From positions 43,896,001 through 43,960,000 of the forward strand of contig CM069137.1 of NCBI GenBank assembly GCA_035221665.1: a DNA stretch of 64,000 nucleotides. The letters are read 5' to 3'. This DNA comes from Okamejei kenojei (lineage: Eukaryota). The position numbers are program-made. Of this stretch, positions 45,001-51,000 are shown piece after piece. Within the stretch, counting starts at the first letter, position 1. Each line of letters opens with the position of its first letter.

Positions 45001-48000
45001 GTGTTGTAGGCTCATGAAACCCATTAGCAGCAAAACCAAAGCTGCCGTACCCTTGAATATGTATTTACTTCCTTTGAGGAAAACAAAATTGTTAGCCATG
45101 AGAATATTGCAGTCAAAAATGGGATACCACCTGTATCATTTGTATTTCACGGGACCTTTACTGTCTCTACTAGACAAACAAAATATTTTAAAGTATGTGG
45201 TTAGCATATATGTGTACATCTGTCAAAGGGATCCACTGACTACTGAGAAAACAACAATCTTCATTTTGCAAAGATGAAGTGTCTCCAGTTCCTAGTCAGT
45301 GAAGAAGCAACTACAATGTTAAATTCTGGCAGCTGTGCCATTCCTTTGAAGTAGAAAAATATACTGGAGTGAATGCTGGAGAAACTCAGCGGGTCAGGCA
45401 TCATCTCTGAAAGACATGGTCAGGACTTTTGGTAAACCAGCATCTGCTGTTCCTTGTATCTCCATTGCTTTGAAATGAACACTTTGATGTTAATTTTTGA
45501 GGTCCATTGTTCTACCAGAAGAGTTAGGATAGCCATACTTGGCTGTGATTTGAACACATGCCACTGCCGGTGGTGGGGGAGATGGTAGACAAGTTACTGT
45601 GAGGAGGGGAGAGAGGAGTTTGAGAGTGAGGCAGGAGAGACCTGCGGTGCAGGAAGGGGCGTCGCCATCCCGGCCGTGGAGTTGACTGACAGAAGAGGAG
45701 ACCAATTTGCATGACGCTGACTGACAGGAGAAGAGACCAATCTGAGCATGTGCAGTTTTTAAGATTTATAAAACTTAATAACTTTTAAAATATACCATCG
45801 ATCGGAACAAAACTTGTTGCACTTGTAGCACAGGAGAATGGTGAGTACGGTGGTGAAAAATCGCAGCGCTATCGTTTACCGTTTTTGCACAAATAGAAAA
45901 ACCACGCAAACCGGAAGAGCACAAGATCAGAGTTTTAGTTATGTATGGATAGATAGATGTACAGGGTAGGTTTTCTGCAGAGAGTGGTTGGTGTCTGGAA
46001 CACGCTGCAACAAGTTGAAGCAGATAGAATAGTAAGATTAAACGAGAACTTACCAGTTCGAAGTTTGATCGTTATTTTATGAGGAGTTACGATGAGGGAT
46101 TACGTGAAGAACCCGCCTGGCGCTGGCAAACGGCATACTTCAAAGCAGCGGCATGAAAAACACAGAACACAAAAATAGCCGAAGTAACATAGTAAGGCTC
46201 ATAATAGACTTAGAACTACCAGATGATCATTTATTTTATGAGGGTGGGGAGTGGAGGGCACATAATCCTCAACGTAACTCCTCATAAAATAACGATCAAA
46301 CTTCGAACTGGTAAGTTCTCGTTTAATCTTACTATTTTACTTCGGAGTCACGTGAGTGACTACGTGAAGAGTTTTAAAGCTTTCTGTGTTTTTTGTGTCG
46401 TAGAATTTATTCCATACGACAGTACGGCTCATTAACACAATAACGAGCGAATAACACATTTTCCCCAAACATTGCCTCAAGTTATGTGATAAATAATTTT
46501 CACATTATAAAAAATGAAAATAATGCCCTTTCTATTGAAAAGCAAATTTATCACAAATACCAATTGATATATATTTTTTATGGCATGACAAAGCAACAAT
46601 TATAGCGAACCGAACATTGCGTGTCTAAATCTGACACCATGACTGGTTCCTTTATTTTAACAGTAATCTACAGCCTCCTGCGGCCTGTGCCATTCCTGTG
46701 AATGTATTTTCCTCATTAACAGAGTGATTTTCCACCTTTCAGTGTCTAGTTCCTACTGAATGTATCCAATTATTAACCATCTAGAAATACATTCCTCTAT
46801 AACCATCAGTTTTACTGAACCCAATGTGGTTTTTGTGTGTAATAAGCAGTCTCATTGCCACAGACTCTTACCTACTGCAACATTTTCATCAATGTTCACA
46901 CACACACACACACACACACACACTTAAAGCCAGCAGGATGTGCTTATAGGTTTACCTTGGTTTTTGTTTTCAGGTCTTCTTGGCGTGCTTTGTTTGGTAG
47001 ATTCATAAACATATATGATAATGCAATTTGTATCCACATGCCATTATAACGTAACATTTGCAATGTTTGCACTCTTATATTGATACTAAAGTTATCAGAA
47101 TTATTATTTTTCAATGTTTAAAGTGTTTAATCATAGATAGAGTTAAAGTCCATTTCTTAAGGCATTTCAGATTTTTTATCTCCTGCCTTTATATTTTTTA
47201 CAATTTTGGACAGATTATNNNNNNNNNNNNNNNNNNNNNNNNNNNNNNNNNNNNNNNNNNNNNNNNNNNNNNNNNNNNNNNNNNNNNNNNNNNNNNNNNN
47301 NNNNNNNNNNNNNNNNNNNNNNNNNNNNNNNNNNNNNNNNNNNNNNNNNNNNNNNNNNNNATATATCCCTTTCCATATTGGGATATTATGAATGCATCTG
47401 ATAACTTCTTGGTTAATATATTATCCGTTTATAAGACGGTAACACTCTGAGCCCTATAATTGGCTCTATCAATTAGATACTTAGAAAATGCAATCCACAA
47501 GGAATTCACATATATCTAAATGGAAAAAATAACTTTCCTGTATATACAGACCTCCAATTTCTTATAACAAAATATAGTTATTTATACTTATTTCCGCAAA
47601 TTGCAGGTATAACACTTCTTTATACATAATTATTTTATTGATATATCGTAATATTGGTTTACATTCATAGACTTCTTTGACCATCAGCTGTTGAGATGGT
47701 CTAGTCAACCTGTAGATAGTCAAATTCATATTTTCACTTATGAAGGTTTTTGTACAACAATAAATTACTGCAGGGTTTCTCAACCTGGAGATCCCAGTAG
47801 GTGCAGCAGCATCCAAAGAAACAAAGGGAGACAGGCAACGACCTAGGTCGAGGCCCCTTTTTTGACCAATAAATTACTGCCATTATGAATCATTACTAGC
47901 AGTTCAAAATCACACAATATAAATGAACCATAAAGGACCCATATTGGGCCACCAAAATGCCTCTGGCAGTGTCCTGCTACATATTCATCAGACACTGCCC

Positions 48001-51000
48001 TATTAAACAAAATGAGAACACAAAGAATCTTTTCCTCATGTAATTTGGAGAAAAGCATCCACCTTCACTGTTCTTAGATTACCCACAAGAATATTCGAAA
48101 GATCAGTGATTTAATCTGTATGCAATCAGATTAATCGTAAGTAATCCATATTAATGACAATATGTTTTTCTTCCCAAATTTGTTCTCTTCCGATACCATT
48201 GTCTCTTCCTTAGAGATAAACAGGTGGACTAACTTAAACATACCACATCTGTTTACTTAGATAATCCCATAATTGTTGTTTGACTTATCTTGTGACCCAC
48301 AAGAAATATTTAAAATCAGTGATTTAATCTGTATACAACCAGATTAATCGTAAGTATGCAAAATAATGACAATATATTTTCCTCCCAAATTTGAACCATA
48401 GTTAACATATGCCACAGCCGTGGTATTGTTCATCTTGATACGACATGGCCAGTTCCATAATAAAAACAATCGATCTTTTTATCCATAACTCCTTATACTT
48501 CAACAATTAATACGAATGTTTGGAAAATTTCTTAGGACAAACCATTTATGTTTGCCTGTACAATTATTGTTATAAGAATAGATAATATTCTTATCTTTAC
48601 CCAAACATTCACAGAAGCTGTACATCATCTGTAACACTTGCTTCAGTTGTAATTTTATAGTTGAAGCAGCTTATGAATCTTTTTTACATTACTAATAATA
48701 ACGTATCATTTGATATTTTGCATAAGCCTCTTCACAAGGCATACATATTCTATAAGCTTCTGTATTCCTTCTTTTGGAACTTTATTTATATTTTCCCCTA
48801 ACCTAATGGAGGAACAAAGTATGTCAACAACAATAATACATATTTGTATCATGGAACAATTTTCCCCACTCTTATGGTGCTTAAATTACTTCTGAATTCA
48901 GAATAGTAATTTAAAAATATTTTATTAATGCCTGAGCATATGCTTTATGTAATGGGTCAAGTCCTACCTTCCACCAGGTTTGTAATGGCAGGCACTAATT
49001 TGCAGCTGCTCTTTATCTCTTCTAATTTAAATGTAATCGAGATAACCCATACCATATACCTCATTAGTGCAAGTGCTGATCTTTTCTCAGTATATTGTTC
49101 CTTCAGTGTTCAGTTTAAACAACTTGAACTGATTGATTGTTTAGACAAGTTTTAACTTGCACAGCTTGACCCACTTTAATTAATTTCAAGCACCTGTAAT
49201 ATTGATTAACACTTTGTTAATCACAACAGTTTTCCATGTTCTAGATGTTTTCTATTTTCTTACACTGTGAAAGTGTAAATAATGATATTATTGTATGGTT
49301 TATACCATGAATCTTTACACTAAGGTAATTTTATAATATACATGTACGTTCCCCTTCTTTTTAAAATTTACTTTTGAGTGCAAACCTGAAATCAGTTTTC
49401 CCCTTATACAGGTGAACCAATCCTCCTTAGTTATATTAAGTTTTAACCATCATAATACACCTGTAATCCCCCATAATTGGAGATTTCATGACTTATTTTG
49501 TAACCAGATGTTTGCACCTCTTCAACGTACATCAAGCCTTCTTTTCCCCAATTATATAGGTTAAGATAAGGCTATGTTTGGATAATACCACTTCTGCCTT
49601 TATTTTGATCCATCATCAAATTTTTCATTGGATCATAGTTTTTTCACCGTAAGATAAAAGATCTTTGTCTTTGTTTTGATCCATAATCAAAATTTTTATT
49701 GGATCATAGTTTTCCTTCCCAAAGTTTAAAGATCAGTGGTCTGTTCTTTTGTAATTAATATCTTTGATTTATCATAAGCAGGTATTCTATAATAATCAGG
49801 AGTTTAATATATCCTGATTTGTATTAATCTGCAACCCTATGATGCAGATTCGGTAAATTATATATATTTCTTCCTATTAAGCTCCACAACTAATGGCAAT
49901 TTATTTTTATATTGCAAGTATTACATATTTGCACCATTTTTGAAACTTTGAAATTGTATTTCTTATATCTCATATATTTGAGACATGCATATTTATAAAT
50001 GGATTAACCATTGATATTTAAATAAAACATAAAGTTTTATCGTATTCTTGAAGTTGGTGAGATACCATATAATTAATGTAGGTAGCTAGGTTTTTCCATA
50101 GCCTCACCACTTCCTTTAGATATAGCAAAACTTTTGCTATCTCAGGCAACACCTGGCCTCACTTTTATTTTTATTTTATTTGTGGTGTGCATTCATAATT
50201 CACATCACCACTTGCAGGTCTGTCTTTTGCAGCCCTGATCCACTTGGAATTATATTCAAAGAGACTTCCTCCACCCTATCCAGGGTCAGAGTTTTTATTT
50301 TTCAATTTGGCACATAGCCAATATTTTGTATATTCAAGCCCCTCAGGGTCTTTTTTGGGGAACTTTTGGGTTCCCTAGCTTTTCCCATATATCGCAATTT
50401 TATTAACTTTTTTAAAAATACAGTCTTTCTGACTTTTAAAATATCCTGCCAAAATTGTGGAGCATTTAAACCTTTCTACCGTATTTTAAACGGTACCAGT
50501 ATCGGAACCGGCCCGTAATTAATCTCTCGTCCCGATCGCTGGGTATTCCCCTGGGACGTTCTTTTTAAAACTCCGTTATTTTAACAGAGTATATCTGTTT
50601 AATTTAAACTTTTAGTTAGTTTTTAAAACCTTTAAAATCCTGGTTTCCACCAGGCACGGAGTTTTCTAGTCCTAAATTTTTTTTTCCCAACAGCACTTAC
50701 CTGCCGGTTCCGAACCTACCGCTGTCGAGGAGCTGTCTGTGCAGCTCCTGCTTCTGCCGTCAGCGTCGACGTAATGCCGTTTGCCAGCGCCAGGCGGGTT
50801 CTTCACGTAGTCACTCACGTGACTCCGAAGTAAAATAGTGGTGTTTAAGATGCTTTTAGATAGGCACATGGATATGCAAGGAATGGTGGATATGGATTGA
50901 GTGCAGGGTGGAAGGTGTGACACTGTTATGTTCTATATGCACATACCTTCTTTTCCACTTCTTCCTGTCTGCTCACATCTTCAAAATGGACCCCAATTTG

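What the first reader, a model, noticed from the sequence alone, without database searches (positions are those of the whole stretch)
46028..50839. DIRS retrotransposon with perfectly matched cis-acting termini but a coding body decayed almost beyond recognition
Seen: a 36/36 ITR core (46101-46136 vs 50774-50809). The ICR (about 46259-46370) has a left half complementary to the 46028 terminus over about 64 nt without mismatch, and a right half (46331-46370) that is 40/40 complementary to 50800-50839. The 4.2 kb between is very AT-rich with no meaningful ORF. Minus-strand remnants survive in DIRS order: ITTEAS (like TDAS, RNase H start), NNTTAVAYVN..GG (like DNTTAVAYIN..GG), VHLFISK (like DLFASR, methyltransferase-like region), and weaker KDSWY (RT-like, 49302-49316) and VNSLWIAFSKYL (YR N-terminal-like, about 47490-47520). 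Established: the ITR+ICR layout is the DIRS1 hallmark, and the termini are regenerated from the ICR at each replication. Inference: matched termini mean a recent insertion, so the body decayed before insertion. This points to a long-lived non-autonomous DIRS lineage, mobilised in trans, that kept near-full length and drifted to high AT rather than shrinking.
[Added by the scan's program, not by the reader: the finding's places include an assembly gap (unread letters, written N; its length is only estimated) at 47219 to 47360. Whether the letters on both sides are continuous or in frame is not known: test that first.]
Basis: partly seen in the sequence, partly recalled or inferred. Interest (0 to 1): 0.8.

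Follow-up and report, generated by a model that had tools for sequence, protein, structure and literature searches.

The report
Gene-less DIRS-like retrotransposon with intact ends
This is a recently inserted copy of a DIRS-type jumping gene that keeps every end structure needed for copying but carries no genes of its own, so it most likely depends on enzymes from a relative.

Summary
Window 46028-50839 (minus orientation) has the full DIRS1-type terminal layout, all without mismatch: a 36/36 inverted-repeat core, a 64/64 match of the 3' terminus to one ICR half, and a 40/40 match of the 5' terminus to the other half. The halves overlap by 6 nt, and the same 6 nt sit at both element ends.

The about 4 kb between is non-coding. 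GC is 0.32 and CpG o/e 0.30, against 1.3 in both end blocks. Each minus-strand frame has 63-72 stops per 1,040 codons.

No search found DIRS or any retroelement protein homology in the interior: Pfam 0 of 103 open stretches, phmmer against 1.84 billion proteins, PDB and word searches. No codon periodicity remains. One weak sign of former coding is a stop-trinucleotide deficit on the minus strand only.

Perfect termini against an old interior support "old body, young insertion", meaning a non-autonomous element. Two claims stay untested because no DIRS comparator and no eukaryotic genome were available: that the body is decayed DIRS coding sequence, and that a long-lived lineage exists. Interest is moderate.

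The parts
46028..50839 (-). Whole element, 4,812 nt as assembled. The length is approximate because it includes an estimated 142-N gap. It is oriented on the minus strand because the ICR lies near the window-left end, which is the element's 3' end.
   Evidence: orientation rule from PMC3266345 (ICRs at the 3' end)
50774..50839 (-). Left (5') terminus. The outer 40 nt (50800-50839) complement the left ICR half. The conserved ITR core is 50774-50809. The two overlap by 10 nt (50800-50809).
   Evidence: 40/40 and 36/36; alignment
50481..50773 (-). 5' subterminal block, CpG-rich (18 CpG, o/e 1.30, GC 0.44), with no ORF. It contains a local 17-nt inverted repeat (50502-50518 / 50697-50713, 88%).
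47361..50480 (-). Non-coding interior right of the gap. GC is 0.32, and there are 72, 63 and 67 stops in the three minus frames over 1,040 codons each. It holds two old local duplications.
47219..47360 (.). Assembly gap (142 N, size estimated). It was not filled.
46441..47218 (-). Non-coding interior left of the gap. GC is 0.33 and CpG o/e 0.39, with 16, 17 and 20 stops in the minus frames over 259 codons each. There is a (CA)13 run at 46897-46923.
46371..46440 (-). 3' subterminal CpG-rich stretch between the interior and the ICR (46371-46470 has 5 CpG in 100 nt, o/e 1.59).
46331..46370 (-). Left ICR half, 40/40 complementary to the 5' terminus 50800-50839. It contains a small hairpin of its own.
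46331..46336 (.). Circular junction: the 6 nt shared by the two ICR halves. The reverse complement of these 6 nt is the sequence found at both element ends.
   Evidence: the left half ends at 46336 and the right half starts at 46331
46273..46336 (-). Right ICR half, 64/64 complementary to the 3' terminus 46028-46091. A degenerate continuation runs to 46259.
46137..46272 (-). Spacer between the 3' terminus and the ICR. It forms the loop of the predicted long hairpin.
46028..46136 (-). Right (3') terminus. The outer part complements only the ICR (a right extension, about 46028-46072). The divergent ITR part is about 46073-46100. The conserved ITR core is 46101-46136.
   Evidence: (46073-46136 vs 50774-50837, 89%)
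46028..46033 (.). A 6-nt sequence identical to 50834-50839 at the other end. On the published model, one copy comes from the element's junction and one from the target, and no target-site duplication arises.
   Evidence: model from PMC3266345 and PMC7192593 (passages)

Best explanation
A single, recently inserted, non-autonomous copy of a DIRS1-like tyrosine-recombinase retrotransposon, on the minus strand at 46028-50839. Shown: it has the complete cis-acting set of parts. These are a 5' terminus, a 3' terminus with an extension, a conserved ITR core, and a two-part ICR whose halves are exact complements of the two outer ends and overlap in a 6-nt junction. About 360 nt (5') and 410 nt (3') of CpG-rich end sequence surround them. 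Shown: the about 4 kb between the end blocks encodes nothing. Shown: that interior is far older in mutational terms than the insertion. Inferred, from the Cappello model as summarised in PMC7192593: a transcript of such an element is reverse transcribed, and its missing ends are rebuilt on the ICR, which pairs with both ends and brings them together. The resulting circle is then recombined into a target that shares the junction bases. Because this copy has no reverse transcriptase or recombinase, those proteins must have come from an autonomous relative with compatible termini. The interior is most likely a degenerate descendant of a DIRS body that has drifted freely while only the ends stayed under selection for mobility. 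That last step is a lead, not a result.
For: Termini and ICR are exact: 36/36, 64/64 and 40/40, with a 6-nt overlap. The 3' terminus/ICR hairpin folds at z -13.5. The layout matches DIRS1-like elements: divergent plus conserved ITR parts, a right extension, ICR halves of about 40 and about 60 nt, about 10 nt shared by ITRs and ICR, junction bases repeated at both ends, and no target duplication (PMC3266345, passages and Table 3 rows seen). No coding capacity was found. 0 of 103 open stretches of 25 or more codons in six frames hit any retroelement family; 8 of the 103 had weak unrelated hits, all below the curated cut-offs. 0 of the 38 minus-strand stretches between 47432 and 50485 (38 of the 56 minus-strand stretches) did so at E<=10. 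Each minus frame has 63-72 stops per 1,040 codons. Young insertion: 0 mismatches in 140 paired positions, including 11 CpG per side, gives K below about 1.1-1.2%, or below about 0.5% if CpG sites are assumed to mutate 10 times faster. Old interior: CpG is 0.77 per 100 nt against 5.70 in the end blocks (Fisher p 4e-17), o/e is 0.30 against 1.27 and 1.30, and the internal duplications are 86% and 79% identical. Hints that the minus strand was once the sense strand: GC skew is negative in 7 of 7 interior sub-blocks. The stop-trinucleotide obs/exp on the minus strand is 0.797, the lowest of 31 strand-windows; the 30 controls run from 0.799 to 1.025 and a recognisable LINE sense strand gives 0.798, while the plus strand gives 0.972 (z -4.45). 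Trans action has precedent: DIRS-1 reverse transcriptase copies RNA of a truncated DIRS-1 in trans (PMC7192593, section 21 read), and TOC1 is called a non-autonomous DIRS retrotransposon (PMC9940879, passage).
Against: There is only one copy in the window. No autonomous partner and no second copy with the same interior could be looked for. The scaffold join across 47219-47360 is unverified. No protein-level trace of DIRS genes was found by any tool. Local and global period-3 signal is absent: the interior gives 0.72 against a simulated 0.68, while LINE1 gives 1.80, LINE2 1.13 and Tc1 1.42. The stop deficit is spread evenly over the three frames. It could come from T-runs inflating the first-order expectation, and it is only 1.9 sd from the control mean. 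In Dictyostelium a full retrotransposition cycle of a truncated element in trans was not demonstrated (PMC7192593, section 21). The negative protein searches have low power, because the open stretches are only 25-103 codons long. From my own knowledge, Pfam models the RT of DIRS elements but not their RNase H, methyltransferase-like or recombinase parts well.
Confidence: 0.6

Rival explanations
1. Same non-autonomous element, but the interior is not derived from DIRS genes. It would be unrelated non-coding DNA, host-derived or from another repeat, that became enclosed between DIRS ends before this copy inserted, for instance by template switching or recombination in an ancestor copy.
For: No retroelement homology in 103 open stretches. 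No hit to RT, RNase H or recombinase by phmmer against 1,835,955,588 proteins: the 3 hits at E<=0.001 are all repetitive proteins without such domains. No period-3 signal. GC 0.32 and CpG o/e 0.30 resemble the oldest non-coding parts of the window, whose overall CpG o/e is 0.43. The switch from CpG-rich to CpG-poor is sharp at both ends.
Against: The length is close to full-size DIRS1-like elements: 4.8 kb against 5.2-6.2 kb in PMC3266345 Table 3 and 4,814 bp for DIRS-1 in PMC7192593. Strand skew is uniform over the whole interior and agrees with the element's orientation. The stop-trinucleotide deficit is confined to the minus strand. The interior contains no piece of the other repeats present in the window, which random host DNA from this repeat-rich region might be expected to carry.
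Confidence: 0.25
2. The interior arrived after insertion. On this view a short or full DIRS copy inserted recently, and its middle was then replaced or filled by one or more nested insertions.
For: The sharp compositional boundaries near 46440 and 50480 would fit insertion or replacement junctions.
Against: No terminal inverted or direct repeats, poly-A tail or tRNA-like head bound the interior. Only chance-level AT-rich matches of 16-27 nt at 70-88% were found, with 0 tRNA genes and nothing at Rfam gathering scores. With the DIRS insertion itself below about 1% divergence, a still younger nested element should look young. Instead the interior is CpG-exhausted and its internal duplications are 14-21% diverged. 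No transposase or other TE protein was found on either strand.
Confidence: 0.08
3. Assembly artefact. On this view the scaffold joins the 3' part of one DIRS-family copy (left of the gap) to the 5' part of another copy or locus (right of the gap).
For: A 142-N gap of estimated size lies inside the element, and repeats are where scaffolds go wrong. Nothing in the window proves continuity.
Against: Order, orientation and spacing are exactly those of one element. The ICR half on the left side is a 40/40 complement of the terminus on the right side. GC, CpG depletion and GC skew are the same on both sides of the gap. Each contig also runs without a break from unique flank through the CpG-rich end block into AT-rich interior, so even a misjoin would leave two ends that each adjoin non-coding AT-rich sequence.
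Confidence: 0.1
4. An old autonomous copy that decayed in place, with the termini still matching by chance or by local conversion.
For: None beyond the AT-rich, stop-filled body.
Against: The end blocks keep CpG o/e of 1.27-1.30 while the body is at 0.30. There are also 0 mismatches in 140 paired positions that include 11 CpG per side. Decay in place would have hit ends and body alike.
Confidence: 0.02

Closest known systems
DIRS1-like retrotransposons of animals as annotated by Piednoel et al. 2011 (PMC3266345; passages and part of Table 3 seen, e.g. AcDIRS1 5,938 bp with ICR 40-58, an X. tropicalis element of 6,196 bp with ICR 41-65)
   Same: Inverted termini with a strictly complementary core and a divergent part tied to the ICR. 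A right extension that complements only the ICR. Two adjacent ICR halves near the 3' end. About 10 nt shared by ITRs and ICR. Junction bases repeated at both ends, with no target duplication.
   Different: No gag, RT/RNase H/methyltransferase-like or recombinase ORFs. The junction overlap is 6 nt rather than the 3 nt described. The conserved ITR core is short (36 nt, near the low end of the published 31-304 nt range). The element is about 0.4-1.4 kb shorter.
DIRS-1 of Dictyostelium discoideum (PMC7192593; abstract, introduction passages and section 21 read)
   Same: ITR + ICR logic. In DIRS-1 the ICR is 88 nt (33 + 55), exactly complementary to both extremities and shown to be essential. Overall size is similar (4,814 bp).
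   Different: DIRS-1 is autonomous. Its terminal repeats are about 300 nt. The host is an amoeba.
TOC1 of Chlamydomonas, called 'the non-autonomous DIRS retrotransposon' (PMC9940879, one passage seen)
   Same: A non-coding member of the DIRS order that depends on other elements.
   Different: The host is an alga. From recall only, TOC1 has a different terminal-repeat layout and belongs to another branch of the order. No sequence comparison was possible.
LARD/TRIM-type non-autonomous LTR retrotransposon derivatives and mini-Ty1 (LARD and TRIM named as non-autonomous in PMC8498967 passages; mini-Ty1 in PMC7192593 section 21: 380 nt of 5' and 357 nt of 3' terminus suffice)
   Same: Intact termini around a non-coding interior, with proteins supplied in trans. 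The two CpG-rich end blocks here (359 and 413 nt) are of the same order as the minimal mini-Ty1 ends.
   Different: Those elements use direct LTRs and a DDE integrase. This one has inverted termini, an ICR and, by inference, a tyrosine recombinase pathway.

Membership tests
DIRS1-like superfamily (order DIRS) | Inverted terminal repeats with a strictly complementary core | tested here: met
   46101-46136 vs 50774-50809 is 36/36. The wider 65 nt are 89% identical.
DIRS1-like superfamily (order DIRS) | Two adjacent internal complementary regions near the 3' end, each the exact complement of one outer terminus | tested here: met
   64/64 and 40/40. The position is 137-343 nt from the 3' end.
DIRS1-like superfamily (order DIRS) | ICR halves overlap in a short circular junction whose bases also start and end the element, with no target-site duplication | tested here: met
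   A 6-nt overlap at 46331-46336, and the same 6 nt at 46028-46033 and 50834-50839. The literature describes 3 nt (PMC3266345).
DIRS1-like superfamily (order DIRS) | Terminal extension that complements only the ICR | tested here: met
   About 46028-46072 pairs with the ICR but has no counterpart in the other terminus.
DIRS1-like superfamily (order DIRS) | Encodes a tyrosine recombinase | tested here: not met
   No ORF was found and no Pfam hit in 103 open stretches. Power is low for short stretches.
DIRS1-like superfamily (order DIRS) | Encodes gag and RT/RNase H (+ methyltransferase-like) proteins | tested here: not met
   0 of 103 stretches hit RVT_1 or any retroelement family. phmmer, word-search and PDB searches of the two best stretches found none.
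Non-autonomous derivative of a DIRS1-like family (LARD-like) | No coding capacity between complete cis-acting ends | tested here: met
Non-autonomous derivative of a DIRS1-like family (LARD-like) | Several genomic copies sharing the same non-coding interior | not testable with these tools
   One copy in the window. No eukaryotic genome collection was available. A 26-nt ITR-core scan of the bacterial/archaeal genome contigs found 0.
Non-autonomous derivative of a DIRS1-like family (LARD-like) | An autonomous partner with matching ITR/ICR in the same genome | not testable with these tools
   No DIRS protein or second DIRS terminus anywhere in the 64 kb.
Non-autonomous derivative of a DIRS1-like family (LARD-like) | Interior homologous to the partner's coding region | tested here: inconclusive
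No protein homology was detected and no period-3 signal. There is a minus-strand stop deficit.

The most novel reading that the evidence does not exclude
This copy belongs to a long-lived, LARD-like parasitic lineage of a vertebrate DIRS1-type element. It is moved entirely in trans, and it has kept near full length while its body drifted to neutral composition. That would be natural evidence that the whole DIRS cycle works on a gene-less RNA, including end rebuilding on the ICR and recombinase integration. It would also suggest that element length, or the spacing between ends and ICR, is itself under selection.
Probability: 0.3. Interest if true: 0.55.

Novelty: new variant of a known kind. 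Interest (0 to 1): 0.4.

Why it matters
Experiments on DIRS-1 showed that the ICR is essential and that the reverse transcriptase can act in trans. They could not show a complete cycle for a truncated element (PMC7192593, section 21). A young, precisely terminated, gene-less copy in a vertebrate genome would be natural evidence that the complete cycle can run in trans. Its sharp CpG boundary also marks out about 360 nt at the 5' end and about 410 nt at the 3' end as candidate minimal cis-acting regions. In the open literature I searched, the only element named as a non-autonomous DIRS is TOC1 of Chlamydomonas. Repeat databases and paper supplements, which I could not see, may already list such families. 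If so, this is just one more member.

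Tried and rejected
I used separate stop-free stretches instead, which lowers power.

(2) I tried to obtain a real DIRS protein as comparator and failed. There is none in the window. The word search with the 44-residue stretch 48347-48478(-) found no candidate. phmmer of the same stretch returned 3 repetitive, unrelated proteins. The word search with the 103-residue stretch 47565-47873(-) gave 44 candidates, none at E<=10.

(3) A literature search for the window's own 6-residue strings gave 2 papers, both irrelevant.

(4) A scan of genome contigs with 26 nt of the ITR core gave 0 matches. 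That collection is bacterial and archaeal, so this says little.

(5) An empty-site paralogue for the insertion point was sought. The 300-nt repeat left of the element has 3 other copies in the window, but they end about 70 nt before the insertion point, so they do not help.

(6) I looked for a nested-transposon signature around the interior and found none.

(7) In-place decay was rejected on the CpG and mismatch contrast.

(8) Human origin was considered and rejected. The window holds a young DIRS copy, and the human genome is reported to have no DIRS traces apart from two domesticated genes (PMC5753468, passage). I do not take this contig for human.

Full report
**What is there.** The window is a repeat-rich eukaryotic, apparently vertebrate, stretch. 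It holds an exon-like piece of a class IIa histone deacetylase gene (Pfam HDAC4_Gln, E 4.4e-27, 5852-6172 +). It also holds two LINE remnants, several Tc1/mariner pieces and weak GIY-YIG pieces. I do not take it for human. It holds a young DIRS copy, and the human genome is reported to carry no DIRS traces apart from two domesticated genes (PMC5753468, passage seen).

**The observation.**
- The ITR core 46101-46136 vs 50774-50809 is 36/36.
- 46028-46091 vs 46273-46336 is 64/64. Mismatches begin at 46092 inward and at 46027 outward.
- 46331-46370 vs 50800-50839 is 40/40, with no extension on either side.

The repeat finder and blastn against the window found the same arms on their own. The four-way alignment shows that the two termini and the two ICR halves are versions of one another.

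The two ICR halves overlap by 6 nt (46331-46336). The reverse complement of those 6 nt stands at both ends of the element (46028-33 and 50834-39). As single-stranded DNA, the 3' terminus and its ICR half form a 64-bp stem. The fold energy is -90.9 kcal/mol against -28.3 +/- 4.7 for shuffles (z -13.5, 0 of 100 shuffles as good).

**Comparison of the anatomy with what is published.** Piednoel et al. (PMC3266345, passages and part of Table 3 seen) describe these features for DIRS1-like elements:
- a conserved ITR part that is strictly complementary (31-304 nt);
- a divergent ITR part tied to the ICR;
- a right extension that complements only the ICR (9-75 nt);
- ICR halves of about 40 and about 60 nt at the 3' end;
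- about 10 nt shared by ITRs and ICRs;
- a 3-nt circular junction whose bases begin and end the element, with no target duplication.

All of these are met here. The one difference is that the junction overlap is 6 nt. The ICR lies near the window-left end, so the element is on the minus strand. As assembled it is 4,812 nt, including an estimated 142-N gap. The published table gives 5.2-6.2 kb, and DIRS-1 is 4,814 bp (PMC7192593).

**The gap.** I did not fill 47219-47360. No reading frame exists on either side, so frame continuity is not a meaningful question. The two ORFs that cross the gap are almost all X. GC (0.33 left, 0.35 right), CpG o/e (0.39 left, 0.32 right) and negative GC skew (7 of 7 interior sub-blocks) run on across it. 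The ICR on the left is the exact complement of the terminus on the right. This fits a single element but does not prove the join.

**The interior.** Over 46441-50480, 3,898 nt were read.
- GC is 0.32 and CpG o/e is 0.30. The two end blocks, 46028-46440 and 50481-50839, have CpG o/e of 1.27 and 1.30, and the whole window 0.43.
- CpG density is 0.77 per 100 nt in the interior against 5.70 in the end blocks (Fisher p 4e-17).
- The minus frames carry 72, 63 and 67 stops per 1,040 codons right of the gap, and 16, 17 and 20 per 259 codons left of it.
- The longest open stretch is 103 codons, and 2.6% of simulations reach that length.

The five window strings exist, in two different frames. Their comparators were recalled, and I could obtain no DIRS protein to compare with.
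- Pfam: 0 of 103 open stretches of 25 or more codons (six frames, 46137-50773) hit RVT_1 or any retroelement, recombinase or transposase family. 8 of the 103 gave weak unrelated hits (E 0.033-0.2), all below the curated cut-offs.
- Pfam at E<=10, on the 38 minus-strand stretches between 47432 and 50485 (38 of 56): the same answer.
- The 44-residue stretch with the strongest claimed motif (48347-48478, minus): no word-sharing candidate among longer proteins. It gave 3 hits at E<=0.001 among 1,835,955,588 representatives. All three are repetitive proteins without RT, RNase H or integrase domains, and they score only because one repeat matches many times at 29% identity. It gave 0 PDB hits at E<=10.
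- The 103-residue stretch: 44 word candidates, none at E<=10, and 0 PDB hits.
- Period-3 signal is absent globally and locally. The interior gives 0.72 against a simulated 0.68. The broken LINE and Tc1 remnants of the same window still show it, at 1.80, 1.13 and 1.42, with 0 of 200 simulations as high in each case.

These negatives have limited power. The stretches are short, database-wide E-values cannot rescue a 10-residue motif, and to my knowledge Pfam models DIRS RT but not the other DIRS domains well.

Stop trinucleotides are under-represented on the minus strand only: 202 observed against 253 expected (z -4.45), while the plus strand has 191 against 197. The obs/exp of 0.797 is the lowest of 31 strand-windows. 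The 30 controls run from 0.799 to 1.025 (mean 0.916, sd 0.063), and a recognisable LINE sense strand gives 0.798. The deficit is spread evenly over the frames and may partly reflect T-runs. I count it as a hint, not a test.

**Age contrast.** On the Cappello model as summarised in PMC7192593, the left repeat is restored from the right one and the extremities are rebuilt on the ICR. In that paper the ICR was shown to be essential; the rebuilding step itself is still a model. On that model the three pairings behave like the two LTRs of an LTR element.

There are 0 mismatches in 140 paired positions (124 non-redundant), with 11 CpG per side all intact. This bounds the divergence since insertion at about 1.1-1.2%, or about 0.5% if CpG sites are assumed to mutate ten times faster. 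The interior is CpG-exhausted. It also holds two local duplications that have diverged by 14% and 21% (48081-48182 / 48295-48393 and 49595-49678 / 49666-49751). The body was therefore already old and non-coding when this copy inserted.

**How it most likely works.**
- Shown: a complete set of cis parts and no genes.
- Inferred: the element is transcribed from the minus strand and copied by a reverse transcriptase supplied by a relative. Its ends are rebuilt and brought together on the ICR, and it is integrated by a tyrosine recombinase at a target that shares the junction bases.
[quoted passage not shown] TOC1 is called a non-autonomous DIRS retrotransposon (PMC9940879, passage).
- The CpG-rich end blocks (359 and 413 nt) are the natural candidates for the cis-acting regions. 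They are of the same order as the minimal mini-Ty1 ends quoted in PMC7192593 (380 and 357 nt).

**Rivals.**
- An unrelated interior enclosed before insertion (0.25). It cannot be separated from a decayed DIRS body without a comparator.
- A nested insertion or replacement after insertion (0.08). No bounding repeats, tails, tRNA-like heads or TE proteins were found, and the interior looks old.
- A scaffold misjoin (0.1). See the gap paragraph above.
- Decay in place (0.02). It is contradicted by the CpG and mismatch contrast.

**Novelty.** The layout is textbook DIRS1-like. The new point is a gene-less, near full-length, recently inserted copy. My literature searches found only TOC1 named as a non-autonomous DIRS. 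The Xenopus survey reports that 36 of 75 families show some degeneration of repeats or ORFs (PMC9210276, passage), with details in supplements I could not see. Repeat libraries may already hold such families. One copy cannot establish a lineage.

**What stayed unchecked.**
- Copy number, the autonomous partner and nucleotide homology of the interior.
- A profile comparison with DIRS domains.
- The join across the gap.

**Verdict.** Interest is 0.4.

Noticed in passing
window 5852-6172 (+): An open stretch of 107 codons matches the Pfam glutamine-rich N-terminal domain of histone deacetylase 4 (E 4.4e-27). It is probably an exon of a class IIa HDAC gene, so the DIRS copy may lie in or near that gene.
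   Followed up: no
window 14582-17789 (+) and 17921-19763 (-): Two LINE remnants face each other, with endonuclease and reverse transcriptase domains broken into several open stretches. Both still show clear codon periodicity.
   Followed up: partly
window 12362-13117 (+), 39750-40004 (-), 41040-41759 (+), 61017-62197 (+): Four Tc1/mariner-type transposase remnants (HTH_Tnp_Tc3_2, DDE_3).
   Followed up: no
window 40456-40761 (+) and 44126-44578 (-): Two weak GIY-YIG nuclease matches (E 1e-4 and 8e-4) in opposite orientation. They may be a pair of Penelope-like element remnants.
   Followed up: no
window 45646-45961 (+), 37805-37986 (+), 39211-39476 (+), 54829-55109 (-): A repeat of about 300 nt is present four times at 72-79% identity. 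The copy next to the DIRS element ends in a GATA-like tail about 70 nt left of the insertion point.
   Followed up: partly
window 51500-55700: A GC-rich block (GC 0.50-0.64), strongly C-rich on the plus strand (GC skew down to -0.48). It has open stretches of up to 314 codons (53457-54398 +) with no Pfam match, and a CCTCTCTCCC-type simple repeat at 51420-51453.
   Followed up: no
window 48081-48182 / 48295-48393 and 49595-49678 / 49666-49751: Two old local duplications inside the element's interior (86% and 79% identity, periods of about 213 and 71 nt). They were used here as an internal clock, and their origin was not studied.
   Followed up: partly
window 50502-50518 / 50697-50713: A 17-nt inverted repeat (88%) with CpG-rich arms inside the 5' subterminal block of the element. 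It could be a stem in the 5' untranslated region.
   Followed up: no
window 37000-39000: A GC 0.59-0.62 block next to a 201-N gap. One open stretch (38514-38918 +) gives a short match to Pfam ALKBH8_N (E 2e-6).
   Followed up: no
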